Below are positions 2,226 through 26,595 of a stretch of 64,000 bases of DNA, one piece after another (position 1 is the first letter of the stretch; every line of letters starts with the position of its first letter). Made by a program: the position numbers and the translations under genes. Source of the stretch: an uncultured Chloroflexia bacterium (GTDB taxonomy: Bacteria; Chloroflexota; Limnocylindria; Limnocylindrales; CSP1-4); contig CAVQJC010000005.1 in NCBI GenBank assembly GCA_963712745.1, forward strand, positions 96,001 to 160,000. The letters run 5' to 3'. The notes below the pieces were generated by a model. That model ran no database searches. It was not told the DNA's origin and worked only from the letters and a program-made list of their open reading frames with translations.

Positions 2226-2432
2226 ACGCTCGCGAACCGCACGATGATCGAGGCCTTCGCCGCTCCGGCCGCCAGGCTCAGGGTCGCGGAGCCTTCGCCG
2301 CTCGAGCCCGAAAGGCTCCCAAAGCATGTGCGCTACCGCTGCGCTGCACCCCGACGAGTTCGTGCGTGCATTGGGTGCACAGCGCGGCTCGAGAGTGATG
2401 CCGAGGGGCCTACAGCGCTCGAACCGCACGAT
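2226..2432 (-). repeat. tRNA-Pro-half att-like element, copy R1 (complete)
   Basis: CGAACCGCACGAT at both ends (2233 and 2420); two GCCTTCGCCGCTC direct repeats; tRNA-Pro 5' half at 2315-2353. Confidence 0.9.
2315..2353 (-). pseudogene. tRNA-Pro(TGG) 5' half only
   Basis: CGGGGTG CA GCGC AGCGGTA GCGC A CATGC TTTGGGA GC: acceptor 5' strand, D arm and anticodon loop; no 3' half follows. Confidence 0.85.
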
Positions 2433-2511
2433 AGCCCTTGGGCGTTCGAGGTGGTGCACCGCGACGGGGCTCACCCTCGCCGATGCAGGTTTCCCGTGGC
2501 GACGAGCGGAC

Positions 2512-4008
2512 TCAGGCGTGCAGGAACTCGGGTTCGACGTGAACTGGTTCACCCCGACTCACCCGGAAGTCGCAGCGTCGGCCGCCTTGCGCGATGGTCT
2601 CGGTGCGGTCGAGCCGCAGGCCCATCGCGGCGAACTGGGGATAGTCGATCCAGCACAGGTACTCGGCGAGCTCGGGGGCACCCTCGTGTTCGAGGTACTT
2701 CACGGCCCCACACTCGATGCAGTCCAGCCCCATCCCCGAGTCGCTCCCGTCGCCTTCGACGACCTCGTACACCCAATCCCCGGGATAGCGGCGTTCCTGG
2801 CTGGTGGCCGCGATGCGTCTCCACAGGTCGACACCCTTCTGGCTCAGGAAACCTCGGCCCTGCAAACGCATCAGCCAGCGCGTCGGGACGGACTGGTAGA
2901 AGCCCACTTCCCCGAGGTGGATGAGGCGGGCCGCTTGCTCGACCGATGCCCCACGCGCCCGGAGGGTTCGGTACATCGCCAGCTTGGCAGCGATCTTGAC
3001 GAGGGTGATGGTGAAGGCGTTCTTGCCGCCGCCGATGTAGGGGATGTCCGGCAGCAGGACCTCGAAGCGCCCGAGCGCCTCTTTGACGATGGCCTCCCCT
3101 GCTGCCTTGCCGTAGGCCTGGGCGAGGGGCTTGCGGAAGGGCCGGAAGTAGAACCTCACCAGCCGCATGAGCCGACCCTTGTGCCTGAGATACCAGAACT
3201 CGGGGCCCATGCGCCGGACCTGCTCGATCTTGGCCGGCGAGGGAGCGGCTTCTCGACGGAGCTCGGACGGCAGCTCTCGTCCGCTGACCCAGGCCTCGAC
3301 CGTGCGGATGTGCAGGTCGGGATCGGCTTTCTGCCAGCAGTGCTTGAGGCCGGGGACATACCAGGCCTCGGCCCGGGGCAGGACCTCGGCCAGGGCGGCG
3401 TTCATCGATCGGACCACGCTCTCCTTCTCGCCGGCGATGAGCAGGGCAGGGCTCGGCGCATCGAGGGCTGCGAACTCCCCGAAGATCTCCCCCACGACGC
3501 GCCCGAACTCCAGGCGTGATGCGACCCGCAGGTCCTCCGGGTCGTGGGTGTCGCGGAAGAACGACTTGAGCGGGCGCGTGTGGATGAATGGCGCCATGGC
3601 AAGCATGCACAGACGCATGATCGCGCGGCCGATGCGCGGCGTGCCAAAGGGGGGCGAGCCGTCGATGACAGCCCGCTCGACGCGCTCGGGGTGGCGATCG
3701 AGCAGGGCGTGGATGTGCAGCCCGCCCGAGGAGATCCCCACGACGCTGGCACGTTTCGCGGGGACGCGCTCCTCGATGAGGCGAGCCAGCAGGTCCGCCA
3801 CGCGCTCCTTGGTCGCCGACCCGAGATGGTTGCTGCGCCCGAAGCCGGGCAGATCCGGCGCCAGGCAGTGGAAGCCAGAGAGCCTGTCCATGTGCTGCCG
3901 CCACTCGCGGCTGCTCTGGCCGGCCCCGTGGATGAAGACGATGGCCGGCGAGCCCGGGGTCCCGGACTCCTCGACATGCAGGCCATCAGGAGAACGCCGC
4001 TCACTCAT
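2512..4008 (-). CDS. Alpha/beta hydrolase fused to an L-2-amino-thiazoline-4-carboxylic acid hydrolase-like domain
   Basis: RBS GGAGGTGA before ATG 4008; FIHGAG, PDLPGFG, GISSGG; C-terminal DCIECG..LCWID..RTETIAQGGRRCDFR. Confidence 0.85.
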   Translation of the reverse strand: MSERRSPDGLHVEESGTPGSPAIVFIHGAGQSSREWRQHMDRLSGFHCLAPDLPGFGRSNHLGSATKERVADLLARLIEERVPAKRASVVGISSGGLHIHALLDRHPERVERAVIDGSPPFGTPRIGRAIMRLCMLAMAPFIHTRPLKSFFRDTHDPEDLRVASRLEFGRVVGEIFGEFAALDAPSPALLIAGEKESVVRSMNAALAEVLPRAEAWYVPGLKHCWQKADPDLHIRTVEAWVSGRELPSELRREAAPSPAKIEQVRRMGPEFWYLRHKGRLMRLVRFYFRPFRKPLAQAYGKAAGEAIVKEALGRFEVLLPDIPYIGGGKNAFTITLVKIAAKLAMYRTLRARGASVEQAARLIHLGEVGFYQSVPTRWLMRLQGRGFLSQKGVDLWRRIAATSQERRYPGDWVYEVVEGDGSDSGMGLDCIECGAVKYLEHEGAPELAEYLCWIDYPQFAAMGLRLDRTETIAQGGRRCDFRVSRGEPVHVEPEFLHA

Positions 4009-4042
4009 CTCGTCACCTCCTACAAGGACGCGAACATGGGGT

Positions 4043-4783
4043 TCACCGTTTTGGCCGAGCAAGGTGGCCGACCCCCACCTCGCGCGCGGCAGCGACGGCG
4101 GCCGCGACACCGTCGGTCCAGGGTTCCCCGTGGCCGGGCAGCAACCAGTGCGCCTCGAGCTCTTCGATGCTCGCGAGCGAGGCCAGCGCTTCATCGGGGT
4201 CGGCAGCGAAGGGACAGATCTGCGGACCACGGCGCTCGGTGATGACCGCGTCCGTCGCCAGCGCGTCGCCCACGAAGAGGGCGTCGTGTTCCGGCGCATG
4301 GAAGGTGACGCTGCCATGCGTGTGTCCGGGTGTGTGGATGACGCGCAGCGCGCCCGGTACGTCGAGCGTCGTGCCCGGGTCGAAGGTGCCGACCTCCATC
4401 AGCGCCGTGGTACGCATCGCGCCGTGACGCATGAGCCACAGCAGATAGTGCAGCAGCGATCGCAGCCGGCGTTCACCCATGCCGGCGCTCGGGTTGCCGA
4501 CCTCGCCCCGGGCCAGGGCAGCATCCAGCTCGTGGATGCTGACGGGCACGTCGCGCTCGGCACGCAATCGTTCGGCGAACCCGATGTGGTCGTCGTGGCC
4601 GTGGGTCAGCACGACGGCGCGAACATCCTCGATCGTGCGGCCCATGGCCGCGAGCTCACCTGGCAGTTCGCCGTAGTACGCGGGCACACCCGCGTCGATG
4701 ATGGTGACCTCGCCAGCTTCCTCGAGGAGATAGCAGCTGACGATCGCTTCGCCGAGCCGATGCAGGGATGGGGCGAGTCGCAT
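4043..4783 (-). CDS. MBL-fold metallo-hydrolase
   Basis: THGHDDH, HTPGHT, GD and PGHG motifs. Confidence 0.92.
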   Translation of the reverse strand: MRLAPSLHRLGEAIVSCYLLEEAGEVTIIDAGVPAYYGELPGELAAMGRTIEDVRAVVLTHGHDDHIGFAERLRAERDVPVSIHELDAALARGEVGNPSAGMGERRLRSLLHYLLWLMRHGAMRTTALMEVGTFDPGTTLDVPGALRVIHTPGHTHGSVTFHAPEHDALFVGDALATDAVITERRGPQICPFAADPDEALASLASIEELEAHWLLPGHGEPWTDGVAAAVAAAREVGVGHLARPKR

Positions 4784-4793
4784 CGGATCGGCC

Positions 4794-5471
4794 TCACGCC
4801 ACGCTCTCAGCCGTCGTGGTTGTCGCCTCGGCCGCTGTTGCCGCCGACTTCACGCCTCGGGCCAGCAGGGCCTTGGAGAACACCGACATCACCGAGACGG
4901 TGACATCGCCGAAGCCGGCCGCCTCCACCAGCCGTTGCGCGGCGTCGTCGGTCCACTGCCACTGGCCGAAGCCGTCCACCACCGCCTCGGTCGACCCTTC
5001 CGGAGCGTACCCAGCCTCACCCATCGTGACCGCCATCCGACCACCCGGGCGCAGGACCCGGTGCATCTCCCGCAGCGTTGCCAGCGGGTCGGGCACGAAC
5101 TTGAGGGCATTGACCGACGTGACCGCGCTGAATCGGTCGTCCTCCCAGGGCAAGTTGTCGGCATCGCCCTTGACGATCTCCGCGGTGCCCGCGGCGATGC
5201 GCTCAGCCAGGCGCCTACGTGCTATCTCGAGCTGCAGCTCCGAGGCGTCGAGGCCGGCGACGAAGCGCACGTGCCCCGCGTGGTCGACGAACAGGGTGGC
5301 CGAGCCACAGCCGACGTCGAGCAGCTCATCGTCCGGCTGGAAGTCCAGCTCCGCAGCGATCTGGGTGTGGAACGGACGGCTGCTCCTCGGCATCAGCCGG
5401 ACGCCGAGCCGCCCAGGCATGCCGTGCGGCACCCCGAAGAACGACATCCACCAGCTTCGGCGCAGACCCAT
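4794..5471 (-). CDS. Class I SAM-dependent methyltransferase
   Basis: LLDVGCGS, GDADNLPWEDDRF, RVLRPGG. Confidence 0.9.
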   Translation of the reverse strand: MGLRRSWWMSFFGVPHGMPGRLGVRLMPRSSRPFHTQIAAELDFQPDDELLDVGCGSATLFVDHAGHVRFVAGLDASELQLEIARRRLAERIAAGTAEIVKGDADNLPWEDDRFSAVTSVNALKFVPDPLATLREMHRVLRPGGRMAVTMGEAGYAPEGSTEAVVDGFGQWQWTDDAAQRLVEAAGFGDVTVSVMSVFSKALLARGVKSAATAAEATTTTAESVA

Positions 5472-5490
5472 CGCACGTCCCCCCATGCGC

Positions 5491-5566
5491 ACGGGCCGGG
5501 TTCGCCAGTGGCTCCGCGCGGCCCTCAGCGGCCATGGTCGACAGGCCGCGCGTCATCGCCTCCCGC
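5491..5566 (-). ncRNA. c-di-GMP-II-like riboswitch, variant (copy 2)
   Basis: Identical to 2054-2129; lies upstream of the methyltransferase. Confidence 0.6.
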
Positions 5567-5662
5567 TACTGACGATTATCCCGTGGCCGCCAAGCCCGGA
5601 GTCAGAGTCAGGCGGCTCGCTCGGACAGCCAGGCCATCAGCGTCTGGAATCTGCGGCGGCTC

Positions 5663-5761
5663 ACGCTCGCGAACCGCACGATGATCGAGGCCTTCGCCGC
5701 TCCGGCCGCCAGGCTCAGGGCCGCGGAGCCTTCGCCGCTCGAGCCTGAAAGGCTCCCAAGC
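5663..5761 (-). repeat. att-like element, copy R2 (arm half only, ends at the anticodon loop)
   Basis: Nearly identical to 2226-2322; similarity stops at ..GGCTCCCAAGC. Confidence 0.9.
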
Positions 5762-6071
5762 GGACACCACTCGCGCGTCGCCGAGCGGCGCGACCTACCC
5801 CACCTTCGTTCCACGTACGATGCGCATGTCCTCCATCTTCGCGAGCCGGTTGAGCGCCCGAAGGAAGCGGCTGGATGCGCTCGCGGCGCCGTGACCGAGA
5901 CGTCCGGTCGCCTTGGCACAGGGGACGAGCGTGCCCCGCTCTGGGCGATCGTCTGCTGTGCTGATCGAAGTGGAGCGGCTCTCCCTACGTGCTCGAGCCG
6001 TCATACGCGACGTGCGCTGACGTGGCACCCAGCGATGACACGACCAACACACGTCGAGCGAGAACGGGTCG

Positions 6072-7296
6072 TCACTGGTCGGCGGCAGCAGCTCCCTCCA
6101 GGGCGACGAGTGCATCTACGAGCGGCTGGACCCCCGGGTCGAGCACCGCGAGGGCACTGAACAGCGCACCGCTGTCGGAGCAGGTGTTGGTGAAGACCAC
6201 GTACGACTCCCCGGTCGTCGGGGTCATGCCCGGCCCAGCCCTCCCAGCCGATGGCCTCGCCCTCGTGCCCGTACTGGTTGCCGAAGCCCTCGGCGAACTG
6301 CATGATGCCGAGGCCATAGGCGAAGATCCCAAGGCCGGCATCGTGCATCTGGAGGCGCTCGGCGGCGAGCTCGTCCGAGAGCAGCGAGCTGCCGCTCATC
6401 GAGGCGGCCCAGATGCCGAGGTCGTCGAGGTCGGAATGCATGCTGCCGCCGATCTGGCCGTAGCTCGCGTTCCAGTCGGTCGTGTCGGTGTCGTCGGGCA
6501 CCGGCTCGGCCCCGTCGCGCACCAACTCGTCCACGCAGGCCGGGCTCATGTAGCCACGGGCGAAGGGCTCGGGCAGGGTGGTGTCGTCGTTGTACGGCAG
6601 CGCGGTGTCAGGCATGCCCAGCGGCTCGGTCAGGCGCTCGGCGACCAGCTCCTGGATGGGCTGGCCGGTGAGGGTCTCGGCGATCTCCTGGAGGATGACG
6701 TAGCCGGTGGTGCTGTAGCCGGGGGTGCCCACGGGCGCCAGGCCGCGCTCCACGCCGTACCCGATGAGCTGCTCCGGGTCCCACTGCGTGTCGGGCGCCT
6801 GGGTCAGCGCCGCCACTGCGGCATCGGGCACGTTCATGTAGTCGGGGATGCCGCTGGTCATGCCCAGCAGGTCACCGATGCTGATGTCGGCCACGTCGGG
6901 GAACTGCTCTGCCAGGGCGGGGTCAGCGTCGGCCACGGTGTCCTCGAGTGCGAGGCTGCCCTCGTCGACGAGCTGCAGGATGATGGCCGCGCCGAAGGTC
7001 TTGCTGATGCTGCCGATGCGGAAGTGGTCGTCGATCGAGGCCGCGCGCCCGTTGGCCACGTCCGCGAGGCCGTACGCCTGCTGGTAGGAGCCGCGCTCGG
7101 GACTCCACAGGCCGACGTAGAAGGCGGGCACCTCGGGGTGCTCCTCCATGACCGCGGCGATGCCGGCATCGATGGCCGCCTGGTCTTCGGCGGACATCGG
7201 CTCGGTCGGTAGCTCCATGTCGGCGGCGACGACCGGGACGACGAGCCCGAGAGCGAGGGTGACGGTGACGGCTGTGGCCATGATGGCTCGAAGCAT
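6072..7296 (-). CDS. Secreted serine hydrolase (beta-lactamase/D-peptidase family) with a +1 frameshift near 6220
   Basis: Signal peptide, FRIGSISK (SxxK), YS, GHEG. The C-terminus continues in ORF 6072..6341 after a 4-base homopolymer. Confidence 0.85.
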
Positions 7297-7452
7297 CGGC
7301 CTCCTCCGGAGAATGCGACTGGGACCTTCAGGCATGCGCTCGGTCGGCGAGCGAATCGGGGCGACGGTAGCACGCGCGTTCTCAGCGAGCGAAAGGGGGC
7401 ATCCGGGCCCCGGGCCCCGGGCCCCGGGCCGATGATCCTCCGGGCGAAGTCG

Positions 7453-7608
7453 ACGCTCGCGAACCGCACGACGATCGACGCCTTCACCGCTCGGCCCGCC
7501 ACGTTCAGGACCCTGGAACCTTCGCTGCTCGAGCCAGAAGCTCCCAAGGCATGGGCGCTACCGCTCCGCTACACCCCAACGAGGTTCGTACGTGGAGAGG
7601 GTACACAG
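7453..7608 (-). repeat. att-like element, copy R3 (tRNA-Pro half at 7540-7578, loop CTTGGGA)
   Basis: ACGCTCGCGAACCGCACGACGATC..GCTCCCAAGGCATGGGCGCTACCGCTCCGCTACACCCCA..AGGGTACACAG. Confidence 0.88.
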
Positions 7609-7609
7609 G

Positions 7610-7900
7610 GACTGCGACTTCGGCGATGGCTGGGAGCACGACGTCGTGGTCGAGGAAATCAGCCCGCAGCGGTCGGACTTGGATGGCCCGATCTGCCTGG
7701 CCGGAAGCATGGCTTGCCCGCCCGAGGATTGCGGGGGGCCAATGGGCTACGAGGACCTGCTTGACGCACTATCGGATCCCGCACATCCCGAGCACGACCA
7801 TCTGCGCGAATGGGCGCCGCCGGACTTCGACCCGACGTTCTTCGACATGGACGAGGCGACCGCCGCCATGCGCTCGGTGCGACCGCTCCAGAGGTGGTGA
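7610..7900 (+). pseudogene. C-terminal fragment of a plasmid pRiA4b ORF-3 family protein
   Basis: DFGDGWEH..CLAGSMACPPEDCGG..GY..HPEH; the N-terminal half is replaced by repeat R3. Confidence 0.8.
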
Positions 7901-7910
7901 TGGACGGCCT

Positions 7911-8327
7911 TCAGGCAGCGAGTCGGAAGGGGTCCTCCACGCGGATGCCGTCGTAGTCGGTGGCATCGTCGAGATCTTCGGACAACACCACTGAACATCC
8001 AAGGGCACGAGCGGCCTCGAGGATCGCCGCGTCCCAGTAGGACACGCCGAAGCGGCTCCGTGTCGCCAGCGCCGCTCGCATCACATCGACACTCGTGACC
8101 TGCACCGAGAACCGACACCAGGCCTCGACCAGTCCGGCTGCCTCGTCGTGGGTGATCGCGTCTTCTCGAGTTGCCCGGGTCGCTTGGACGTAGAACTCCT
8201 GCAGGACCTGCACCGAGAGACCGATCTCACCACCGTCGATGATCTCGTTCGCGATCATCGCTTTGCCCTCCTCCGCCGGGTCGCGTGAGATGGCATACAA
8301 GAGGATGTTCGTGTCAACGAAGCGCAC
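7911..8327 (-). CDS. vapC: PIN-domain toxin (VapC family)
   Basis: FVDTNILLY, QVLQEF, SYWDAAI, SED. Confidence 0.92.
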   Translation of the reverse strand: MRFVDTNILLYAISRDPAEEGKAMIANEIIDGGEIGLSVQVLQEFYVQATRATREDAITHDEAAGLVEAWCRFSVQVTSVDVMRAALATRSRFGVSYWDAAILEAARALGCSVVLSEDLDDATDYDGIRVEDPFRLAA

Positions 8328-8553
8328 GCTCGTGAACCTCATCGCGTGTCAGGCGGTCCATCGCCCGGAAGCGCTTGATCTGACCTTGGATGCGACGCTG
8401 CTGCGCTTCCAACCGCGAGAACTCGGCGTCATCGTAGGAAAGCGAGCGCAGGTAGGTCGCGACCATGCCACTGACTGATCGGCCCTCCTCCGCGGCTCGG
8501 ATGCGAGCGGCGCGATAGACGTCGTCAGGTACAGAGACCGTGATGTTCTTCAC
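8314..8553 (-). CDS. Ribbon-helix-helix antitoxin
   Basis: GTG start KNITVSVPDDVYRAARIRAAEEGRSVS; overlaps the toxin gene. Confidence 0.85.
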   Translation of the reverse strand: MKNITVSVPDDVYRAARIRAAEEGRSVSGMVATYLRSLSYDDAEFSRLEAQQRRIQGQIKRFRAMDRLTRDEVHERALR

Positions 8554-8766: not shown

Positions 8767-8825
8767 TCAGGTGCCGTTGCTGGAGGGACTCCCGAAGCAC
8801 TCTGCGCGAGCGTCTTGGAGCCCGC

Positions 8826-9021
8826 AAACCACACGATGATCGGGGCCTTCACCGCTCGGCCCATCACGCTCGCATGGCCGGGAGCTTCACCGCGAACCCC
8901 GCGTGGGCTCCCAAAGCATGTGCGCTACCGCTGCGCTACACCCCGACGAGTCCGTGCGTGCCTAGGCGCAGCGAGGCTCGACGGCGACACAGATGGGCCG
9001 ACACTGCTCGAATCGCACGAT
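8826..9021 (-). repeat. att-like element, copy R4 (complete; tRNA-Pro(TGG) half at 8907-8945)
   Basis: AAACCACACGATGATC..GCTCCCAAAGCATGTGCGCTACCGCTGCGCTACACCCCG..CGAATCGCACGAT. Confidence 0.9.
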
Positions 9022-9084
9022 AACCCCGAAGCAGCGGCGAACCGACTGGGGGTGCTCGCCCGCCGGTTCGCGCATCCAGACCGA

Positions 9085-9903
9085 TCAGGCTTCGCGTTGG
9101 TGATCGAGAATCCAGCGCTGCACCCTGACGACCCCGAGGAGCCCGAGGATCCGATCGCCCAGGCTGGGCGACAAGGCGTTGAGGGCGAGGAGTGGCCGGA
9201 CTGGTCGCGGGCTGACGACTACCTCCTGGCGCTCTTCTTCGATGGCACGCACGACAGCGCGGGCGACGTCGGAGGCGGGACTGGCACCCATCAGGCGCGG
9301 CGCGGTCGCACCACGGTCCACGAAGATCCCTGCCTCGCTGACGTAGCCGGGCAGGACGATGCTGGTCTTGACACCCGTGCCCTCTAGCTCCACGTGGAGG
9401 CCTTCCATCCAGTTGACGAGCGCCGCCTTCGTCCCGGAGTAGGCGGCGTCATAGGGGATGCCCTTCTTGCCCTCGAGGGAGGCGACGGTGGCCAGATGTC
9501 CACGGCCCCGCTCGATCATGCCCGGGAGCAGTCGGCGGGCGAGAACCATCGGTGCAACGAGGTTGACATCGACCATCTCTCGGAGCTCGGTGTCATCGAA
9601 CTCCGTGAATGGGGCCAACCGTGCGACGGCGGCGTTGCTGACCAAGATGTCGATCGGCCCCAGCTCTGTCTCAGCGCGCGACACCAAGACGTCGAGTGAG
9701 TCCAGGTCACGCAAGTCGGCCGGAAGCGCCACCACGTTGGCCCCGCTGCCGGCGAGATTCGCGGCCATCCGCTCAAGCTGGTCCGCATGTCGGTCCGTGA
9801 GCGCCAGGTTGGCACCTCGGAATGTCATTGCTCGTGCGATGAACACACCGATGCCTCGTGAAGCACCGGTCAGCAGCGCGTTCGCGCCCCGCAACTCCCC
9901 CAT
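9085..9903 (-). CDS. SDR family oxidoreductase
   Basis: TGASRGIG, SNAA, YSGTK. Confidence 0.93.
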   Translation of the reverse strand: MGELRGANALLTGASRGIGVFIARAMTFRGANLALTDRHADQLERMAANLAGSGANVVALPADLRDLDSLDVLVSRAETELGPIDILVSNAAVARLAPFTEFDDTELREMVDVNLVAPMVLARRLLPGMIERGRGHLATVASLEGKKGIPYDAAYSGTKAALVNWMEGLHVELEGTGVKTSIVLPGYVSEAGIFVDRGATAPRLMGASPASDVARAVVRAIEEERQEVVVSPRPVRPLLALNALSPSLGDRILGLLGVVRVQRWILDHQREA

Positions 9904-10025
9904 CGTTCACCCTCCGTTCCGGCTCGGATCGTGGTGGGTGCCCCCACGCTGCAGCGCTACGATACTCCGTGGTGTCTGCGCGACACCCTTGCGGGCACCG
10001 ACATCGATGCAAGCAGGAGGCGGCG

Positions 10026-10853
10026 ATGGCGACGATCATGGTGAACGGAGCATCGCTCGAGTACGAGGAGCGAGGGACCGGATCGACACCGGTGCTCATG
10101 ACGCACGGGTTCCTGTTCGACCACCACGCCTTCGATGGGCTCGTGGCCGATCTCGAGGGCGACCACCGGTGCGTGACCTTCGACTGGCGCGGTCAGGGCG
10201 CGAGCGAGGTGACGAGCGACGGCTACAGCGTCGACACGCTGACCGACGATGCGGCCGCGCTCATCGAGCGCTTGGAGCTGGCGCCCTGCCACTACATCGG
10301 CACCTCGATGGGTGGCTGGGTCGGCTTGCGGCTCGCGCTGCGACGGCCCGAGCTGCTGCGCTCGCTCATCCTGCTCAACTCCTACTCTGAGGGAGAGGGC
10401 TGGGGCCGCGTCCCGGGCTATCTATTGATGGCTGCGATCGCACGCATCAGAGGCATGGCGCCGCTCGTGGATCCGGCGATGAAAGCCGTCTTCTCACAGG
10501 AGTTCATGTCCGGCGAGGAGCACGAGGTCGAGCGTGAGCGCTGGCGGGAGCATATCCGGGACATCGATCGCACCGGTGCCGACCGGACGCTCCACGGGAT
10601 CGTCCTTCGTGCCGGGAGCGTGACCAATCAACTGGCGGACGTCGGACTCCCCGTGCTCGCGATCGCAGGGGTCGAGGACAAGTCGTTCAGCCCGGACCAG
10701 GTCCAGGAGATGGCGCTGCGTATCCCCGATGGTGAGTACGCCCAGATTGCCGGTGCCGGCCACGCGGTCGCCATCGAACAACCGGAGGCGACCGTGCGAC
10801 TCATCCGTGGCTTCTTCGAGCGCGTGAACGTGGCGCGGACCGACGCAGCCTGA
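10026..10853 (+). CDS. Alpha/beta fold hydrolase
   Basis: RBS AGGAGG; HG, DWRGQG, GTSMGG, GAGH. Confidence 0.92.
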   Translation: MATIMVNGASLEYEERGTGSTPVLMTHGFLFDHHAFDGLVADLEGDHRCVTFDWRGQGASEVTSDGYSVDTLTDDAAALIERLELAPCHYIGTSMGGWVGLRLALRRPELLRSLILLNSYSEGEGWGRVPGYLLMAAIARIRGMAPLVDPAMKAVFSQEFMSGEEHEVERERWREHIRDIDRTGADRTLHGIVLRAGSVTNQLADVGLPVLAIAGVEDKSFSPDQVQEMALRIPDGEYAQIAGAGHAVAIEQPEATVRLIRGFFERVNVARTDAA

Positions 10854-10918
10854 CCTCGCGCTCGATTCGTTGCGGCGATTGTCACGTCGTCTGAACCGAT
10901 CTCATCCGCCAAGCGTCT

Positions 10919-11100
10919 GAACCGCACGATGATCGAGGCTTTCGCCGCTCGGTCCCTCGTGCTCAGCGGTTCGCTGCCTTCACCCGCTCGGGCCTCGCGG
11001 GCTCCCCAAGCATGTGCGCTCCCGCTGCGCTACACCCCGACGAGTTCGTGCGTGGATTGGGTAGACGGGGCAGCTCTCGGAGGGAGAGGGCCTACAGCGC
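10919..11100 (-). repeat. att-like element, copy R5 (tRNA-Pro half at 11001-11039, anticodon GGG)
   Basis: GAACCGCACGATGATC..GCTCCCCAAGCATGTGCGCTCCCGCTGCGCTACACCCCG..GGCCTACAGCGC. Confidence 0.9.
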
Positions 11101-11111
11101 TTCTGCCCGGG

Positions 11112-12458
11112 TCAGCCGAGGCGTATTACCGGTGGCACCACCCAGGTGCCGTCCAGCGCCGCCGGCTCCGGCCAGTACATGCGGCACGCCAGGTAGAAGG
11201 GCCCGTCAGGGGTCGGCAGCCAGTTGGCTCGCTCGACCGGGTCGGTGGGCGCTTGGCGCTGCATGGTGATCGTGAGCGCGCCCTCGGCGTCGCGAACGAG
11301 TCCCTCGGTGAGCGCGTTGATGAGATAGCGGTCGATCGGGTTCTCGACGAGGTATCCGGCAGTGCCGTCGTAGCTGGTGTCGTACATCGTCACCGACCAG
11401 AACGCCCGCACCGGCGGCTCGGTCTCGAGCCGCAGCTGGTACTTGCTGTTGCCGTCGAACGGGTTGCCGTCAGCATCGACCCGCGCCATGGGGTAGGAGG
11501 CCTCGATCCGGTCGTTGCCGCCCCAGCCCACCATCGACTCGGCGGCGCGGCGGAGGTAGTCGCCGGCATAGGCCTCGCGGTTGCCGAAGGCGTCCATCGA
11601 CATCCATCCGTTGATGGTGGCCCCGAGCTGGCTGGAGGCCTTGGAGAGCTCATCGCGAGCCTCGGCCACGCCGCTCGCGAGGGCACTTCGGATGTCATCC
11701 GGGAGTGCCTCGACGTCCGCAGGGAGGCCGGGGCCGATGCCGATCCGGGCGAAGCGGGCAAACATCTCCACCTCGTCGGGGTGGGGAGGCTGGCACAGGG
11801 GCAGCAGGGAGTTGAGGTAACGCACGAAGCGCTCATCGCGCGACGTCTCGTCGTCCCAGTGGGGCCAGTCGTAGGCTGGCAGATCAGGCGCCGGATTCCC
11901 GGTGAATACCGCGTAGGGCTCCAGACGATACTGCTTCATGATCCCCGCGAGCGCCGGGGCGTCTCCGGGGCCGAGCAGTTGGGAGCGGCCGATGAGGAAC
12001 ACCAAGTCGGTCTCGAACTGGTGGGAGCCGCTGAAGCCTTCGGGCACCTCACCCTGCCAACTCGGACCGGCGAGGAAGTAGGTGCCGGCCTCCACCCCCG
12101 TCGACCGGCTGCCGACGTAGAGGTCGTTCTGTCCATAGAGGTCCTCGAACTGCATCACGTAGTAGCGGTCGGTCACTGCGGGTACCGATAGCACCAGCGG
12201 GCCAGCGCGAAGATCGAGCAGGGAGAATGAATAGGGGGTATCCGCGTTCGGCGTGATGACATCGCGGAAGCGATGGTCGAGCGTCACAGCCTCACCGTAC
12301 GGCCCCGCGTTGGCCGGGCCGCGATACGCGGGCGAGGCCGACCGGAGGAATGTGGCATACCCATATCGGTACCCCATCATCATGGGGAAGGCGTAGATGT
12401 ACGCCTCCCTGGCGATGGCGGCCACTTCGGCGAGGGCCAGGGAAGGGTCGATGCGCAT
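11112..12458 (-). CDS. DUF1254/DUF1214 domain protein
   Basis: EAYIYAFP, TPNADTPYS, PPVRAFWSVTMY, NWLPTP, RMYWP. Confidence 0.9.
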   Translation of the reverse strand: MRIDPSLALAEVAAIAREAYIYAFPMMMGYRYGYATFLRSASPAYRGPANAGPYGEAVTLDHRFRDVITPNADTPYSFSLLDLRAGPLVLSVPAVTDRYYVMQFEDLYGQNDLYVGSRSTGVEAGTYFLAGPSWQGEVPEGFSGSHQFETDLVFLIGRSQLLGPGDAPALAGIMKQYRLEPYAVFTGNPAPDLPAYDWPHWDDETSRDERFVRYLNSLLPLCQPPHPDEVEMFARFARIGIGPGLPADVEALPDDIRSALASGVAEARDELSKASSQLGATINGWMSMDAFGNREAYAGDYLRRAAESMVGWGGNDRIEASYPMARVDADGNPFDGNSKYQLRLETEPPVRAFWSVTMYDTSYDGTAGYLVENPIDRYLINALTEGLVRDAEGALTITMQRQAPTDPVERANWLPTPDGPFYLACRMYWPEPAALDGTWVVPPVIRLG

Positions 12459-16511: not shown

Positions 16512-16584
16512 GCGGGCCGGGTTCGCCAGTGGCTCGGCGCGGCCCAGGCGGCCATGGTGTGGGCCGCGTCTCACAGCCTCCCGC
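16512..16584 (-). ncRNA. c-di-GMP-II-like riboswitch, variant (copy 3, diverged)
   Basis: GCGGGAGGCTGTGAGA-CGCGGCCC..ATGGCCGCCT-GGGCCGCG-CCGAGCCACTGGCGAACCCGGCCCGC; stems preserved; upstream of an unrelated gene. Confidence 0.62.
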
Positions 16585-16750
16585 TGCTCACGATTCTCTC
16601 GCGGCTGCCAAGCCGGGGTGCGATCGGGACTGATCGACTGGGTCGTGAGAGCGCCGGGCGGACGTCACACCTTGCGCCTACGATGCTCACGACGAACGGA
16701 GAGCGCTGCGTCTGCTGTGCCCGATCGGGACAACGAACGAGACGTGACGT

Positions 16751-17329
16751 TCAATCGTCGCGGGTGAGCTCGGAGCGAGCGTCACGGGGGTAGACCAAGA
16801 GCAGTCGCGCCGGCTCGTCGCCGATCGACTCCGCATCATGCGGCAGCGTCCCATCGAGGAGGACGTAGTCGCCGGCCCCGGCTTCCACGAAAGCGTCGCC
16901 CTGCGTGAAGCGCACCTTGCCCGCGAGGACCACGTGGTGCTCGTCACCAGCATGGGCATGGAAGCCGGTTCGCCGGCCGACCGGCATCTCGCCCTCGAAG
17001 ATGGCGATCTCACGCGCCAGGCCACCGTCAACCTGCGTCATCACCCCCAGTCCATCGAGCAGTTCGCGTCGAGGTCGCTCGGACGCACGCACCAGGCGCG
17101 GTCGCGCGGTCGCGTCGAGCAGGAACCACGCGATCGGGACATCGAGCGCGTCGGCCAGCGCCGCGAGCGTCTCGAGTGACGGCGACGCCTTGTCGTTCTC
17201 GACCTGGCTCAGGTAACCCACGTTCAAACCGGTCAGCTCGCCAACCTGCTTGAGCGTCAGCGCTCTCTCACGACGTCTGCGCCTGATCTGTGCGCCGACT
17301 CGTGGGCGGCGCCGAAAGCTGTCGGTCAT
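16751..17329 (-). CDS. XRE-family transcriptional regulator with cupin domain
   Basis: LTLKQVG..YLSQVENDKASPSL; HAHAGDE; GD..LPH. Confidence 0.9.
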   Translation of the reverse strand: MTDSFRRRPRVGAQIRRRRRERALTLKQVGELTGLNVGYLSQVENDKASPSLETLAALADALDVPIAWFLLDATARPRLVRASERPRRELLDGLGVMTQVDGGLAREIAIFEGEMPVGRRTGFHAHAGDEHHVVLAGKVRFTQGDAFVEAGAGDYVLLDGTLPHDAESIGDEPARLLLVYPRDARSELTRDD

Positions 17330-17835: not shown

Positions 17836-17929
17836 GGCGGACGAGCGCGATCAGATACACCTCCTCGACGTTGACCCGACGGGGATCGCGTCGACTGGAG
17901 GCCTGCTTGCGTTGCTCCTGGCGTACGCC

Positions 17930-17953
17930 ACGCTCCTGAACCGCACGACGATC
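17930..17953 (-). repeat. att-like element remnant R8 (terminal motif only)
   Basis: ACGCTCCTGAACCGCACGACGATC. Confidence 0.7.
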
Positions 17954-17961
17954 CTGTCCCC

Positions 17962-18270
17962 TCAGCAGCCGAGGGCGTGGCCGACCGCCGAGCAGACACG
18001 CCTCATGGTCGCTTCGCTGACGGAGCCGGCGTACGTCGTGAGCGACGTCTTGGTGATCGTGTGAAGGCCGTCGCAGTTGATGACTGACGGTCGGTCGAGG
18101 CCAGCTTCCTGGTGATCGAACTCGACCTCTGCGGCGATGCCGCGGATAGTGGTGGTGACCTCAGCGACGGTCACGAGCGCGCGCACATCGATGACCTCGG
18201 GCCGGGTCAAGACCAGCACGGGCCGCCGCTTGCGGCCGACTTCCGCGAACCAGATCTGGCCCCGGGTCAC
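17962..18270 (-). CDS. mazF: PemK/MazF family toxin
   Basis: RGQIW..KRRPVLVL..VAEVTTTIRG..SVINCD. Confidence 0.9.
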   Translation of the reverse strand: MTRGQIWFAEVGRKRRPVLVLTRPEVIDVRALVTVAEVTTTIRGIAAEVEFDHQEAGLDRPSVINCDGLHTITKTSLTTYAGSVSEATMRRVCSAVGHALGC

Positions 18271-24907: not shown

Positions 24908-24980
24908 TCGTGCGTGGATAGGGTACACAGCGCGCTTCGATAGCAGCAGATGCGAGGCCTACAGCGTTCGAACCGCGCAA
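24908..24980 (-). repeat. att-like element remnant R9 (promoter arm only)
   Basis: TCGTGCGTGGATAGGGTACACAGCGC..GGCCTACAGCGTTCGAACCGCG matches 2360-2428. Confidence 0.82.
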
Positions 24981-25145
24981 CCATGACCGATCGCCTTAGG
25001 TCGATGGGGGCCAGCGTGCGGTCTACGGGTCTCCATCGAGGAAGCCGGCCCCTGACCACGGCCAGCTGATCAGGCTCATCAAGCTGCGGGGAGTCACCAG
25101 AATCGGTGATCACTTCGAATCGGGCTTCCGCTCAGCCGCCAGCTG

Positions 25146-25623
25146 GGCCATGGCGTCACCCACCCGCCGGCGCGGACGCAGACCATGGAGACCGGTCACC
25201 GAAAGCGCATGGTGCGGGCCGCCGTCGGTAGTTATCAGCCTGGCTCGGCCCAGGCCTCCTCAGCCTCGGTCTCCATCTTCTTGAGGCGCGTGTAGTAGTC
25301 CGGGAATTCCTTGAGATGTGCGAGCGCGATCTTGCCCGTCACGATCGGATCGCTGCCGCTCACGTTGGTCTGCGAGTCGTGCGTTCCGTGCTCCAGTTCG
25401 ACATCGAGGCCCTCTCGGAACTGATCCACGTCGAATGGGCTGGTGTCCCAGTCGATACCGATCTCAGTCCCGATCCGACGGGCTTCTTCGGCGGTGAAGT
25501 GTTCGTCCGTTGTCATCGATCCTCCTCAAGAGCCAGCAGGACGCGTGACTCACTCGAGCAGCGTACTACCCGGGTATCCGTGCTCGGGCCGACGGGGGTG
25601 CGAGTCCCCCTGGATGAGGGTCG
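25146..25623. repeat. ~478-bp near-exact duplication, copy B
   Basis: Matches 12984-13461. Confidence 0.92.
25235..25516 (-). CDS. DUF5661-like small protein (second copy)
   Basis: One amino acid different (K/E) from 13073-13354. Confidence 0.85.
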   Translation of the reverse strand: MTTDEHFTAEEARRIGTEIGIDWDTSPFDVDQFREGLDVELEHGTHDSQTNVSGSDPIVTGKIALAHLKEFPDYYTRLKKMETEAEEAWAEPG

Positions 25624-25742
25624 GCTTTGTCTCGCGCCTAGAATCGAAGGAGGGCCGGACAGCACTCGCAAGACGCGGCTCACGGTGGCGAGGACGAGAG
25701 TCCTGGTCTCGGGAACGGACCGGCCTCGGGGGAGGTGGAGCG

Positions 25743-26444
25743 GTGAGGACGATCATCAAGGTCTTGGCGCTGCTCGGAGTCGGCATACTGCTCTGGTTCC
25801 GCGGGCGCGATTGGGCAGGCTACGTAGGCGATCACGTCGGCGTCGGGCGCAAGACGACCGGACCCATCGCGCGGGCCCTCTACAGACACGACCCGTGGCA
25901 CCGCACGGCATACCCCATGGCCCTCGAGAAGCTGGCGCTGGCCCCGGATGACACGTACCTCGACATCGCTTGTGGAGGGGGGACGCTGCTCTCACTGGCG
26001 CTCGAAACGGTGGACCGGGCGGCGGGCCTCGATCACAGCCCCGCCGCCGTCGAGGTAGCGCGGGAAACGAACGCCGCGGCGCTCGAGGCGGGTCGGCTCG
26101 AACTGCGGGAAGGCGACGCCGCGGACCTGCCGTGGGATGACGGCTCGTTCGACGCCGTCTCCAATCTCAACACCATCCACACGATGCAGGAGCCACGGCC
26201 TCTGCTACGCGAGGCCCATCGGGTCCTGAAGCCCGGTGGTCGGTTCCTGCTCATCACCCAGTCGGCCGAGTCGCTCGAAGGCCCGATGTGGGGATGGATG
26301 CGACGCTTGCTGGTGCTCCACGGCGACAGCGAACTGGCATCGATGCTGCGGGATGTCGGATTCTCGGAGGTGGAGGCCTACTCACCGGACGGGGATCGCC
26401 AGGTCGGCTACGGCATCAAGGCGACCGTCGAGGCCAGCGCGTAA
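25743..26444 (+). CDS. Class I SAM methyltransferase with N-terminal TM helix
   Basis: LDIACGGG, GDAADLPWDDGSFD, RVLKPGG. Confidence 0.88.
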   Translation: MRTIIKVLALLGVGILLWFRGRDWAGYVGDHVGVGRKTTGPIARALYRHDPWHRTAYPMALEKLALAPDDTYLDIACGGGTLLSLALETVDRAAGLDHSPAAVEVARETNAAALEAGRLELREGDAADLPWDDGSFDAVSNLNTIHTMQEPRPLLREAHRVLKPGGRFLLITQSAESLEGPMWGWMRRLLVLHGDSELASMLRDVGFSEVEAYSPDGDRQVGYGIKATVEASA

Positions 26445-26515
26445 GCCCGCGGAGACAAGCCTCTTGGGCGCCGCCGCTGCGACGAGTTCCCCGCCAGGGG
26501 CGCACTGCGCGACCG

Positions 26516-26595
26516 ACGCTCCTCGATCGCACGATGATCGAGGCCTTCACCGCTTCGGCCGTCACGCTCGGAAGGCGGCACCTTCGCCACTCGAC
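26516..26595 (-). repeat. att-like element remnant R10 (arm half)
   Basis: ACGCTCCTCGATCGCACGATGATCGAGGCCTTCACCGCT..CCTTCGCCACTCGA. Confidence 0.8.

What the first reader, a model, noticed from the sequence alone, without database searches (positions are those of the whole stretch)
2226..26595. Candidate new system: integron-like cassette array delimited by tRNA-Pro-half att-like repeats
Seen in sequence: about 10 co-oriented copies of a ~200-bp element (at about 2226, 5663, 7453, 8826, 10919, 12679, 14071, 17930, 24908, 26516) separate 1.2-7 kb blocks of unrelated accessory genes. The minus-strand order is ATCGTGCGGTTCG, GCGCTGTAGGCC, a TACCCT -10-like box, a leader, then CGGGGTGTAGCGCAGCGGTAGCGCACATGCTTTGGGAGC (tRNA-Pro 5' half, stopping 2 nt after the anticodon loop), two GAGCGGCGAAGGC repeats, and ATCGTGCGGTTCG again. 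Established: tyrosine integrases often cross over in tRNA anticodon loops and use direct-repeat arm sites, and tandem integrations leave attP-like junctions. Inference: each block is a non-autonomous mini-island whose attP supplies a promoter and the tRNA 5' half (rather than the usual 3' end), integrated serially at one tRNA-Pro. None of the cassettes encodes an integrase, so it would act in trans, as in an integron, but without attC sites.
Basis: partly seen in the sequence, partly recalled or inferred. Interest (0 to 1): 0.95.

Follow-up and report, generated by a model that had tools for sequence, protein, structure and literature searches.

The report
Gene-cassette array anchored at tRNA-Pro
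A 49-kb stretch of this bacterial genome is a stack of about twenty small accessory-gene cassettes, each separated by the same 250-base joint that carries the promoter and front half of a proline tRNA gene, which looks like repeated site-specific insertion at that tRNA and works much like an integron built from different parts.

Summary
A ~250-nt repeat occurs 21 times, all on the minus strand, over contig C5:73,713-122,600. The window holds only the upper half. The array ends in the genome's only intact tRNA-Pro(TGG), whose upstream region and 5' half are themselves a repeat copy.

In the genus, 18 of 18 arrays with an assembled end stop at that tRNA. The tRNA's 3' flank is syntenic, while cassette content and order differ. 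The same cassettes sit at different array positions in different species.

G000's array has no recombinase. A relative (G008) carries a 312-aa Xer-like tyrosine integrase in a single element at the same tRNA, flanked by homologous arms. Across the class, 24 of 29 homologous integrase loci place the gene about 120 nt upstream of a tRNA 5' end, divergent from it. One tRNA-Arg element has a perfect 39-nt repeat of tRNA nt 1-39, ending at the anticodon loop.

It is not categorically new. Islands with 5' tDNA fragments, tandem accretion, integrase-less att-flanked elements and tycheposon islands are all known. I rate it a new variant of a known kind.

The parts
2208..2459 (-). Full junction copy (attP-like, P-O-P'): outer direct repeat 1, GCGCTGTAGGCC box, -10-like box, leader, tRNA-Pro 5' half, two GAGCGGCGAAGGC boxes, outer direct repeat 2
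   Evidence: nhmmer profile positions 14-266, E 5.8e-72; sequence read; alignment
5644..5759 (-). P'-arm-only junction. Similarity begins inside the anticodon loop (TTGGGAGC) and what lies upstream is unrelated.
   Evidence: nhmmer positions 152-267; sequence; homology with the G010 cassette starts exactly here
7448..7608 (-). Junction copy with tRNA half and P' arm, lacking the distal P arm
   Evidence: nhmmer positions 91-253, E 3.2e-43
8785..9033 (-).
10910..11101 (-). Nearly full junction copy
   Evidence: nhmmer positions 54-249
12642..12898 (-). Full junction copy
   Evidence: nhmmer positions 29-286, E 8.4e-63
14072..14181 (-). Partial junction: tRNA half plus proximal P' arm
   Evidence: nhmmer positions 101-210
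17925..17962 (-). Solo copy of the outer direct repeat, directly after the mazF stop codon; no tRNA half
   Evidence: 13-mer with 2 mismatches plus matching flank; alignment of four MazEF cassettes
24908..24990 (-). P-arm-only junction. It ends at the leader and has no tRNA half.
   Evidence: nhmmer positions 32-113; sequence
26511..26600 (-). P'-arm-only copy; the last recognisable junction, at the far end of the array
   Evidence: nhmmer positions 163-253. Next comes a beta-ketoacyl synthase gene at 26764-28029.
2..1477 (-). Cassette cargo: alpha/beta hydrolase plus SAM methyltransferase, read as one open frame that runs off the window
   Evidence: Pfam
2512..5492 (-). Cassette: alpha/beta hydrolase with ATC_hydrolase domain, and a SAM methyltransferase behind a c-di-GMP-II-GAG riboswitch. 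88% identical over 2.5 kb to the first cassette of G010.
   Evidence: Pfam; Rfam; blastn
6001..7335 (-). Cassette: serine beta-lactamase-family protein (PF00144)
   Evidence: Pfam
7592..8342 (.). Cassette: PRiA4_ORF3-like gene (+) and PIN-domain gene (-); also present in the G021 and G022 arrays
   Evidence: Pfam; blastp
9085..10853 (.). Cassette: short-chain dehydrogenase (-) and alpha/beta hydrolase (+)
   Evidence: Pfam
11112..12458 (-). Cassette: DUF1254/DUF1214 protein
   Evidence: Pfam
13073..13354 (-). Cassette: DUF5661 protein. A second copy, 98% identical, lies at 25235-25516.
   Evidence: Pfam; repeat family D3
14268..17329 (.). Stretch without full junctions: hypA/hypB-like genes (+), a 4Fe-4S protein behind a c-di-GMP-II-GAG riboswitch (-), and an HTH-cupin regulator (-)
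   Evidence: Pfam; Rfam
17965..18270 (-). MazF/PemK toxin gene of a toxin-antitoxin cassette. The same cassette is found in G021, G009 and G024, where it is the first cassette next to the tRNA.
   Evidence: Pfam

Best explanation
The region is the upper half of a 49-kb tandem array of about 20 small integrative cassettes that lack an integrase. Each holds 1-3 accessory genes, and the median spacing is about 1.8 kb. The array has built up on the 5' side of the genome's only tRNA-Pro(UGG) gene.

Each 250-nt repeat is an attP-like junction (P-O-P') left between neighbouring units. P carries an outer direct repeat, a GCGCTGTAGGCC box, the tRNA gene's -10-like box, the leader and the tRNA 5' half. 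O is the anticodon loop. P' carries two GAGCGGCGAAGGC boxes and the second outer direct repeat.

Units enter and leave by site-specific recombination in or next to the anticodon loop. The enzyme is a Xer-like tyrosine integrase of a clade that always sits just upstream of tRNA genes. Because the incoming element brings its own promoter and 5' half, the tRNA stays intact at the downstream end of the array.

G000 has no such integrase, so its array is currently a passive store, comparable to an integron cassette cluster without its integrase. It could be mobilised only by an integrase supplied in trans, for example by the int plus Replic_Relax elements seen at the same tRNA in related genomes.

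Shown here: the anatomy, the tRNA anchoring, the cassette shuffling among species, and the link between this integrase clade and tRNA 5' ends.
Inferred: the exact crossover point, mobilisation in trans, and that the junction promoter transcribes the next cassette. 29 of 42 called array genes point the same way as that promoter.
For: 1. Anatomy and anchoring.
- 21 co-oriented copies lie on C5:73,713-122,600. The lowest copy is the upstream region plus 5' half of the intact, sole tRNA-Pro(TGG).
- 18 of 18 congeneric arrays with at least 2 copies and an assembled end stop at tRNA-Pro(TGG), co-oriented with it and upstream of it. Three more run off contig ends.

2. Breakpoints at the anticodon loop.
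- Junction copies match the tRNA up to CATGC-TTTGGGA-GC and then diverge.
- The scattered P-only copies diverge right after CATGC or CATGCTT.
- One junction starts at TTGGGAGC.

3. Cassette turnover.
- The tRNA 3' flank is syntenic in relatives, while most cassettes have no counterpart in the relatives' fetched array loci.
- MazEF, Phd/ParE, the methyltransferase-hydrolase cassette, DUF5661, HTH-cupin and PIN cassettes recur at other array positions in G009, G010, G021, G022 and G024.

4. The integrase.
- G008 has one 5.9-kb element at this tRNA with a 312-aa tyrosine integrase about 120 nt from the tRNA 5' end. The P arm lies between them, and the far junction keeps 20 nt identical to tRNA nt 20-39 plus a P'-like arm.
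- In the genus, 8 of 9 integrase loci of this clade face a tRNA 5' end.
- G019 has a 100% identical 39-nt repeat of tRNA-Arg nt 1-39, 9.1 kb away on the integrase side.
- In the class, 24 of 29 fetched loci show the same arrangement at 96-142 nt, 11 of them at tRNA-Pro(TGG).
- Arm motifs are shared with the tRNA-Arg element.

5. Helper and passengers together. G257, G346, G272 and G196 have co-oriented junction copies upstream of tRNA-Pro and the integrase in the unit next to the tRNA. The integrase's neighbour is a Replic_Relax protein in G257, G272 and G128.

6. Polarity. Junction profile score falls with distance from the tRNA (Spearman -0.66, p 0.0016, n 20). The caveat is that the profile was seeded with 11 of these copies.

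7. Sequence rather than fold is conserved. RNAalifold on 27 copies gives a covariation term of -0.65 and no end-to-end hairpin.
Against: - No recombination was observed. No circles or empty sites within one population were seen.
- The metagenome contigs were short. They gave only one usable alternative adjacency, the joint 11055 to 13081 with 178 other letters, in two runs, at a 90% likeness threshold.
- For shared cassettes, the variable parts of the flanking junctions are not co-inherited with the cargo. In the MazEF cassette of G021 and G024, similarity starts only at the second box and outer repeat and ends near the first outer repeat. This fits breakpoints at the outer direct repeats, or homologous exchange or gene conversion among junctions, as well as it fits a loop crossover.
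- Short junction forms and a solo outer repeat exist.
- The integrase has no arm-binding domain, so the role of the conserved arms is unexplained.
- The integrase-bearing unit is never internal to an array (0 of 25 array loci). A simple model in which every newcomer lands at the tRNA does not predict this.
- 8 of 29 copies lie outside the array, some fused to an unrelated shared sequence.
- The strict promoter scan finds no sigma-70 site in the junction.
- The genome is an 84.55%-complete MAG, so an integrase could be unassembled.
Confidence: 0.7

Rival explanations
1. A resident, integron-like platform. The integrase next to the tRNA is a fixed part of the locus, like intI beside attI. New cassettes are inserted at the junction on the far side of the integrase unit, not at the tRNA. 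G000 would then be the state after loss of the integrase, like a CALIN.
For: - The integrase is always in the unit next to the tRNA and never internal. This holds for 8 of 8 tRNA-Pro-linked integrases and 11 of 11. No remnant is found in 25 array loci.
- The integrases of G257, G346 and G331 are 97-98% identical while the neighbouring content differs.
- Cassette content (toxin-antitoxin pairs, small enzymes) resembles that of chromosomal integrons.
Against: - The integrase travels with a Replic_Relax gene typical of mobile elements.
- The same clade sits at six different tRNA species.
- In genus g1 only 1 of 21 tRNA-Pro loci examined has it.
- G019's tRNA-Arg element has clean attL- and attR-like ends 9.1 kb apart, as a mobile element would.
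Confidence: 0.2
2. Homologous recombination, not site-specific recombination, now builds and shuffles the array. The 250-nt junctions act as portable homology arms, and the integrase mattered only for the founding insertion(s).
For: - Junctions are 76-88% identical over 200 nt or more.
- Variable junction segments are not inherited together with the cargo.
- Internal deletions between the two outer repeats occur, giving short forms and a solo repeat.
- G000 and most congeners have arrays but no clade integrase.
- G000's far flank differs from that of its relatives, as after a repeat-mediated rearrangement.
Against: - Breakpoints of partial copies cluster at the anticodon loop rather than being spread over the repeat.
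- All copies in each of the 18 arrays keep one orientation and the tRNA anchor.
- Integrase-bearing members with the same arms exist.
Confidence: 0.15
3. A true integron or CALIN whose attC sites were not recognised.
For: A co-oriented array of small cassettes, with toxin-antitoxin genes and paralogous enzymes.
Against: - No integron integrase. The best TIGR02249 score in the genome is 84.9 bits against a cut-off of 265.
- The junction ends are direct, not inverted, repeats.
- The consensus fold has no end-to-end hairpin and almost no covariation.
- The junctions are 250 nt long and conserved in sequence.
- 13 of 42 called genes point the other way.
Confidence: 0.02
4. A tRNA-derived dispersed repeat (MITE- or SINE-like) that happens to be dense here.
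For: 8 of 29 copies lie on other contigs, on both strands, and some are single.
Against: - 21 of 29 copies are in one array with one orientation.
- The arrays are anchored at the same tRNA in 18 genomes.
- There are no terminal inverted repeats.
- Copies bound exchangeable gene cassettes.
- Target-site duplications were not examined.
Confidence: 0.03

Closest known systems
tRNA-gene-targeting genomic islands with a displaced 5' tDNA fragment, and their tandem arrays (as catalogued by Islander)
   Same: An intact tDNA plus co-oriented tDNA fragments mark the unit ends. A tyrosine integrase is involved, the crossover site is centred on the anticodon loop, and attP is about 250 bp. Islander's Table 1 lists 159 of 3919 islands with a 5' fragment, 2083 with anticodon-centred sites, and 125 tandems of two or more (passages read).
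   Different: Islander requires an integrase in every island and found only 4 tandems of three or more. Here about 20 units of 1-4 kb have no integrase, and the junctions are complete attP-like sites that include the promoter.
Cis-mobilizable elements (CIMEs) and tandem accretion with ICEs in streptococci
   Same: att-flanked elements without their own integrase lie in tandem with an integrase-bearing element at one site and can be mobilised by that element's integrase. The concept is recalled from memory; only a search listing was seen.
   Different: Those cases involve one or two units derived from ICEs at the 3' end of a protein gene or a tRNA. This is a long regular array of gene-sized cassettes on the 5' side of a tRNA, and no conjugation genes were seen.
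Integrons and CALINs
   Same: What it works like: an ordered, co-oriented store of small, exchangeable cassettes rich in toxin-antitoxin pairs and small enzymes. The recombinase is a Xer-like tyrosine recombinase, and arrays lacking the integrase exist.
   Different: There is no IntI, no attC hairpins and no attI or Pc. The sites are 250-nt double-strand-type sequences containing half a tRNA gene. Each junction has its own putative promoter, and gene orientation is mixed (29 of 42 co-oriented).
Tycheposon-shaped islands of Prochlorococcus
   Same: Serial integration at a tRNA pushes older units into the island. Partial tRNAs are scattered through it, and cargo genes are adaptive (passages of 10.1101/2020.12.28.424599 read).
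   Different: Tycheposons carry integrase and replication modules, and their remnants are degenerate. The passages I read do not say which half of the tRNA is repeated. Here the junctions are well conserved and the units are far smaller.
ssrA-specific islands of Dehalococcoides
   Same: Islands integrated site-specifically at a single-copy tDNA (abstract seen in the listing; the tandem arrangement is recalled from memory).
   Different: The target there is the tmRNA gene. The 3'-end direct repeats, island sizes and integrase type are recalled and were not checked.

Membership tests
Integron / CALIN | Integron integrase (IntI) with its extra domain | tested here: not met
   TIGR02249 search of the whole genome: best score 84.9 bits against a cut-off of 265, on another contig. 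The G008 integrase scores 58.3 bits.
Integron / CALIN | attC sites: imperfect inverted repeats that fold into a hairpin, conserved in structure but not in sequence | tested here: not met
   The junction ends are direct repeats. RNAalifold on 27 copies gives a covariation term of -0.65 and only 4 invariant end-to-end pairs. IntegronFinder itself was not run.
Integron / CALIN | Co-oriented, mostly promoterless cassettes | tested here: inconclusive
   29 of 42 called genes are co-oriented with the junctions (crude GC3-based gene calls). Several cassettes carry their own riboswitch leader.
tDNA-integrating genomic island (Islander definition) | Intact tDNA plus a co-oriented displaced end fragment on the correct side | tested here: met
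   The tRNA-Pro(TGG) is intact. 5'-half fragments lie upstream in the same orientation.
tDNA-integrating genomic island (Islander definition) | A tyrosine integrase gene inside each island | tested here: not met
   None in G000's array. The feature is met only by the G008, G257, G346, G272, G128, G196, G331 and G342 units next to the tRNA.
CIME-type non-autonomous integrative element | Flanked by att sites of an integrative element and lacking integrase and excisionase | tested here: met
   The junctions are homologous to the arms of integrase-bearing elements, and the units hold no recombinase.
CIME-type non-autonomous integrative element | Excision or mobilisation by an integrase supplied in trans | not testable with these tools
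   Only indirect evidence: cassette shuffling among species and one alternative adjacency in metagenome contigs.
MITE/SINE-like dispersed repeat | Many dispersed copies in both orientations with terminal inverted repeats and target-site duplications | tested here: not met
   21 of 29 copies are in one co-oriented array. The ends are direct repeats. Target-site duplications were not examined.
Xer/dif-type modules (pdif-like) | 28-bp sites with two inverted 11-bp arms, in alternating orientation around modules | tested here: inconclusive
   The outer repeats are all direct, and by eye show only a weak dyad. This genome's own dif site was not identified. The definition is recalled from memory.
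Tycheposon | Hallmark integration and replication modules shared within the family | not tested
   No tycheposon proteins were compared. G000's units carry no such modules.

The most novel reading that the evidence does not exclude
This family of bacteria has evolved a second kind of integron from different parts. A Xer-like integrase sits beside tRNA-Pro. The recombination sites are 250-nt attP-like junctions. Each junction also delivers a tRNA-gene promoter and a half-tRNA leader, so that every captured cassette is transcribed, not only the first. Arrays that have lost the integrase, such as G000's 21-junction array, persist as cassette reservoirs. The same integrase clade would be doing this at the 5' side of at least six tRNA species across the class.
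Probability: 0.3. Interest if true: 0.85.

Novelty: new variant of a known kind. Interest (0 to 1): 0.62.

Why it matters
It shows how a long, orderly, integron-like store of accessory genes can arise without IntI or attC. The ingredients are an integrase that recombines in a tRNA anticodon loop and elements that replace the gene's promoter and 5' half, the mirror image of the usual 3'-end rule.

The integrase clade is found in 74 of 301 sampled genomes of the class, and almost always about 120 nt upstream of a tRNA. It therefore offers a defined enzyme and site pair for testing why tRNA-targeting elements nearly always choose the 3' side.

Tools that require an integrase in each island, or that search for attC, would miss such arrays. 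Flexible-gene reservoirs of this type may therefore be under-counted in uncultured high-GC bacteria.

The cassettes also gather six copies of orphan c-di-GMP-II-like riboswitch variants with their gene partners.

Tried and rejected
- Rfam at gathering thresholds finds no family for the junction itself, only riboswitch variants and the tRNA.
- ARAGORN finds no tRNA in the window.
- I looked for a conserved stem in the variable spacer between the two GAGCGG boxes. My by-eye pairings were not in a consistent register, and RNAalifold did not predict it, so I dropped it.
- The strict sigma-70 and terminator scan of one junction found nothing.
- I looked for a recombinase in the tRNA 3' flank and beyond the far ends of small arrays. 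I found only a polyketide-cyclase-like protein, DUF2568, a GGDEF protein, a CLC channel, Fic, GNAT, a luciferase-like protein and a GntR regulator.
- A serine recombinase (PF00239) occurs once in the genome, on C1, unlinked to the array.
- Laying metagenome contigs gave short unitigs only. Most 'joints' fall inside repeats and are uninformative. The parts without cover, and the RNA run X20, show nothing firm: X20 has small contigs 100% identical to some cassettes, but DNA carry-over cannot be excluded.
- Shares of words below 0.2 in runs X14-X20 were not used for any claim.
- I tested whether the junction halves travel with shared cassettes. The result was unclear for Phd/ParE, whose flanks are too diverged. 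For MazEF and the methyltransferase cassette it was only partly as predicted.
- Literature: full-text searches returned no title or abstract describing a tRNA-Pro 5'-half cassette array. This is weak evidence of absence. Supplements are closed, so Islander's list of 159 islands with 5' fragments could not be checked for this lineage.
- I did not determine the organism's name. The lineage statement 'high-GC, probably actinobacterial' is only an inference from an F420H2-related domain and the GC content.

Full report
**1. What is there**

The window is contig C5:96,001-160,000 of a 4.2-Mb, 68% GC MAG, 84.55% complete with 5.03% contamination.

A profile built from 11 copies finds 29 copies in the genome. 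21 of them lie on C5 between 73,713 and 122,600, and all 21 are on the minus strand. The array therefore begins 22 kb to the left of the window, which holds only its upper half.

Nine are profile hits. The one near 17,930 is a solo copy of the outer direct repeat.

The alignment of 27 full copies confirms the order of parts on the tRNA strand:
- outer repeat 1 (…ATCGTGCGGTTCG) followed by AGCGCTGTAGGCC;
- a variable stretch;
- a TGTGTACCCTA box and a short leader;
- the tRNA-Pro 5' half;
- a short variable segment in two versions;
- two GAGCGGYGAAGGC boxes separated by a variable spacer;
- outer repeat 2, followed by CGAGCGTG.

Many copies are partial: P arm only, tRNA half plus P' arm, second box plus outer repeat only, or internally deleted.

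**2. The tRNA anchor**

ARAGORN finds no tRNA in the window. It does find an intact tRNA-Pro(TGG) at C5 c[73679,73753], the only tRNA-Pro(TGG) in the genome. This is exactly where the lowest array copy sits.

The 110 nt upstream of this tRNA are the P arm of the repeat. The tRNA and the junction copies are alike up to …CATGC-TTTGGGA-GC, 2 nt past the anticodon loop, and then part.

In the genus, 21 of 49 species genomes match the repeat at E ≤ 1e-15. I fetched the loci. In 18 of 18 cases with two or more copies and an assembled downstream end, the copies are co-oriented and lie upstream of an intact tRNA-Pro(TGG), which closes the array. The 18 are G000, G001, G008, G009, G010, G013, G014, G018, G021, G022, G024, G048, G051, G052, G054, G055, G059 and G060. 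G054 has 13 copies. Three further arrays (G049, G050, G056) run off contig ends.

G018 has a different tRNA-Pro sequence type. Its single cassette is bounded by a 5'-half copy of that same type.

**3. Cassettes**

Pfam scans of 40 array ORFs show:
- alpha/beta hydrolases;
- SAM methyltransferases;
- metallo- and serine-beta-lactamase-fold proteins;
- a sulfatase;
- dehydrogenases;
- HypA/HypB;
- a ferredoxin-like protein;
- regulators;
- three toxin-antitoxin types (Phd/ParE, PIN, MazF).

No recombinase is among them.

The tRNA's 3' flank (a GGDEF protein, DUF2568 and a polyketide-cyclase-like protein) is syntenic in eight relatives. Most cassettes have no counterpart in the relatives' fetched array loci.

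Where cassettes are shared, they sit at different array positions.
- The MazEF cassette at window 17,965-18,270 is the first and only cassette in G024. It is internal in G021 and G009.
- The methyltransferase-hydrolase cassette at window 3,236-5,759 is 88% identical over 2.5 kb to the first cassette of G010.
- DUF5661 occurs twice in G000 itself.

Gene order between repeats is therefore not conserved.

**4. The recombinase**

G000 has four tyrosine-recombinase matches and one serine-recombinase match. None is on C5, and none reaches the integron-integrase cut-off.

Every array-bearing relative examined has the same pair of Xer-like genes about 40 kb apart on another contig.

The decisive lead came from a genus-wide PF00589 search. 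In G008, a 312-aa tyrosine integrase lies inside the single 5.9-kb element at tRNA-Pro(TGG).
- It has a SAM-like N-terminal domain plus the catalytic domain. Its best NCBIfam match is XerC, at 163 bits against a cut-off of 335.
- It is divergent from the tRNA and about 120 nt from its 5' end, with the P arm between them.
- The far junction of the element keeps 20 nt identical to tRNA nt 20-39, followed by a P'-like arm with outer repeat 2. Upstream of it is what looks like a decayed tRNA 5' half.

Eight homologues (41-55% identity) in six other genomes of the genus were fetched.
- Seven of the eight face the 5' end of a tRNA: Arg-TCG in five cases, Val-GAC and Gly-TCC.
- One is a conventional 3'-type element with a 44-nt repeat of tRNA-Gly nt 33-76.
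- In G019 a perfect 39-nt direct repeat of tRNA-Arg nt 1-39, ending at the last base of the anticodon loop, lies 9.1 kb away on the integrase side. This is a clean element that replaces the 5' half. Its arms carry motifs like those of the tRNA-Pro junction: TTAT..GT…CGCTGTAGG in P and GTTCGCG(T)GAGCGTG in P'.

Across the class the integrase is found in 74 of 301 sampled genomes at E ≤ 1e-45. This tally includes three genomes flagged unpublished.

Of 29 fetched loci (one unpublished locus was dropped), 24 have the integrase start 96-142 nt from a tRNA 5' end and divergent to it. The targets are Pro-TGG 11, Val-GAC 5, Met-CAT 3, Arg-TCG 2, Lys-CTT 2 and Gly-CCC 1. Five loci have no tRNA, and in four of these the integrase start lies within about 170 nt of a contig end.

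In sister genera, G257, G346, G272 and G196 have co-oriented junction copies upstream of tRNA-Pro(TGG) together with the integrase in the unit next to the tRNA. The integrase's neighbour is a Replic_Relax (PF13814) protein in G257, G272 and G128. That pairing points to a small autonomous integrative element.

No integrase remnant is detectable in G000's array. tblastn at E ≤ 1 gives two chance-level hits. None is found in 25 array loci of congeners.

**5. How it most likely works**

An element of this family carries an attP of about 250 bp. Its P side is a copy of the tRNA gene's promoter region and 5' half. Its core is the anticodon loop.

Integration into the tRNA joins the element's promoter and 5' half to the resident 3' half. 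The essential tRNA survives, and the old 5' half is displaced upstream. A second integration leaves a complete P-O-P' junction between the two units. Repetition gives the array.

Any two junctions are substrates for excision of the DNA between them as a circle with one junction. Gene-sized units without an integrase can therefore be stored, lost, reordered and passed on when an integrase is present. This is the integron logic, and it is also the logic of cis-mobilizable elements.

Three observations fit this model:
- Junction integrity declines with distance from the tRNA (Spearman -0.66, p 0.0016, n 20, with the caveat that the profile was seeded with 11 of these copies).
- The far third of the array has only fragments.
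- Partial copies break at the loop.

The steps that are inferred, not shown, are the exact crossover, mobilisation in trans, and promoter activity of the junction. On the promoter question:
- the strict E. coli-type scan is negative;
- 24 of 47 tRNA genes of this genome have a TANNNT box at -35 to -8, and the tRNA-Pro box fits that pattern;
- 29 of 42 called array genes point downstream of the junction promoter.

**6. What does not fit neatly**

- Variable junction segments are not inherited with shared cargo. Short forms and a solo outer repeat exist. Homologous exchange, gene conversion, or recombination at the outer repeats must therefore contribute, or may even dominate today.
- The integrase lacks an arm-binding domain, yet both arms are conserved, even between elements aimed at different tRNAs. 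What binds them is unknown.
- The integrase-bearing unit is always the one next to the tRNA and never internal. This could mean that autonomous elements turn over fast. It could also mean that the integrase unit is a resident platform and cassettes enter on its far side (rival 1).
- Eight copies lie elsewhere in G000. Four P-arm copies (C8, C10, C17 and G022's L022) end at the loop and continue into a shared unrelated sequence that looks like the leader of another operon. The C16 copy also ends at the loop, but only its first few bases resemble that sequence. C8 also has an IS110-like transposase there.
- The ancestral far flank of relatives' arrays maps to G000 contig C20:44.7-46.4 kb, near two junction copies on C20. 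This suggests a rearrangement or an assembly join at repeats.

**7. Comparison with what is known**

The Islander paper states that attP is about 250 bp and contains a tDNA fragment. Its Table 1 counts 159 of 3919 islands with a 5' tDNA fragment, 2083 with anticodon-centred sites, 125 tandems of two or more, and only 4 tandems of three or more, each member having its own integrase (passages read).

The tycheposon preprint describes serial integration at tRNAs that pushes older elements into islands and leaves partial tRNAs (passages read).

Cis-mobilizable elements and accretion are recalled from memory; only a listing was seen.

Against integrons, two defining features, IntI and attC, were tested and not met. 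The locus works like an integron but is not one.

What is new is the combination of:
- a long, regular array of gene-sized units without integrases;
- complete attP-like junctions that include a tRNA promoter and 5' half;
- a widespread Xer-like integrase clade dedicated to the 5' side of tRNA genes.

I rate this a new variant of a known kind, with interest 0.62.

**8. Metagenome check**

Twenty public runs hold parts of window 2,200-12,000, with shares from 0.09 to 0.57. Only short contigs were available.

Depth over the junctions is 5-30 times that of neighbouring cassettes, as expected for a multi-copy element.

One contig form, seen in two runs of two studies, joins a DUF5661 cassette through 178 other letters to the cassette at 10,744-11,055. 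On that side it is 100% identical to G000. It skips the DUF1254/DUF1214 cassette. This is a hint of cassette-order polymorphism, no more.

Noticed in passing
window 2049-2135, 5486-5572, 16507-16590 (minus); L024 792-879, 12775-12861, 6644-6728: The 49-kb array holds five c-di-GMP-II-GAG and one c-di-GMP-II-GCG riboswitch-variant aptamers. They sit in front of SAM-methyltransferase/hydrolase operons, a 4Fe-4S protein and a DUF4886-like protein. The same riboswitch-methyltransferase cassette recurs in G010 and G054. Metagenome depth over 16009-16675 is 143-333x against 1-10x nearby.
   Followed up: partly
G000 contigs C8:96154-96243, C10:7254-7301, C17:5374-5492, C16:14924-15057; L022 9136-9263: P arm plus tRNA 5' half copies outside the array end at the start of the anticodon loop. 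Four of them (C8, C10, C17, L022) continue into a shared unrelated sequence with a TTGACG…TAGACC promoter-like pair and a hairpin, upstream of small membrane-protein genes; the C16 copy shares only its first few bases. Their origin is unexplained.
   Followed up: partly
G000 C8:94686-96075: By eye, two adjacent ORFs resemble an IS110-family transposase. They are inserted about 40 nt after one of the P-arm/other-sequence fusions. They were not scanned against Pfam.
   Followed up: no
G000 C20:31183-32203 and C20:44693-46384: Genes that flank the far end of the arrays in G010, G001 and G024 match G000 contig C20:44.7-46.4 kb (73-91% amino-acid identity). They do not match the ketoacyl-synthase/radical-SAM genes that follow G000's array at window 26764 onward. 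C20 carries two junction copies on the opposite strand 13 kb away. This indicates either a repeat-mediated rearrangement or a mis-join in the MAG.
   Followed up: partly
G000 contigs C1 and C2: C1 and C2 carry the same series of tRNA genes (Ala-Ile, Ser-Ser, Arg-Ser, Ser). C16 and the start of C17 carry the same gene set. The bin probably holds parts of two related genomes, which fits the 5% contamination estimate.
   Followed up: no
L025 13305-13325; L028 3448-3469: The tRNA-Arg(TCG) genes that have the 5'-side integrase also have a 21-22-nt repeat of the tRNA 3' end about 4.4 kb downstream. This suggests a second, conventional 3'-type element at the same tRNA.
   Followed up: no
window 26764-29478: Directly beyond the array lie a beta-ketoacyl synthase and a B12-binding radical SAM protein, possibly the start of a lipid or natural-product gene cluster.
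   Followed up: no
G000 C17:74720-74909: A solitary, nearly full junction copy lies between two genes of about 168 aa that, by eye only, resemble the SRPBCC/polyketide-cyclase family. The gene just downstream of tRNA-Pro at the main array was assigned to that family by Pfam.
   Followed up: no
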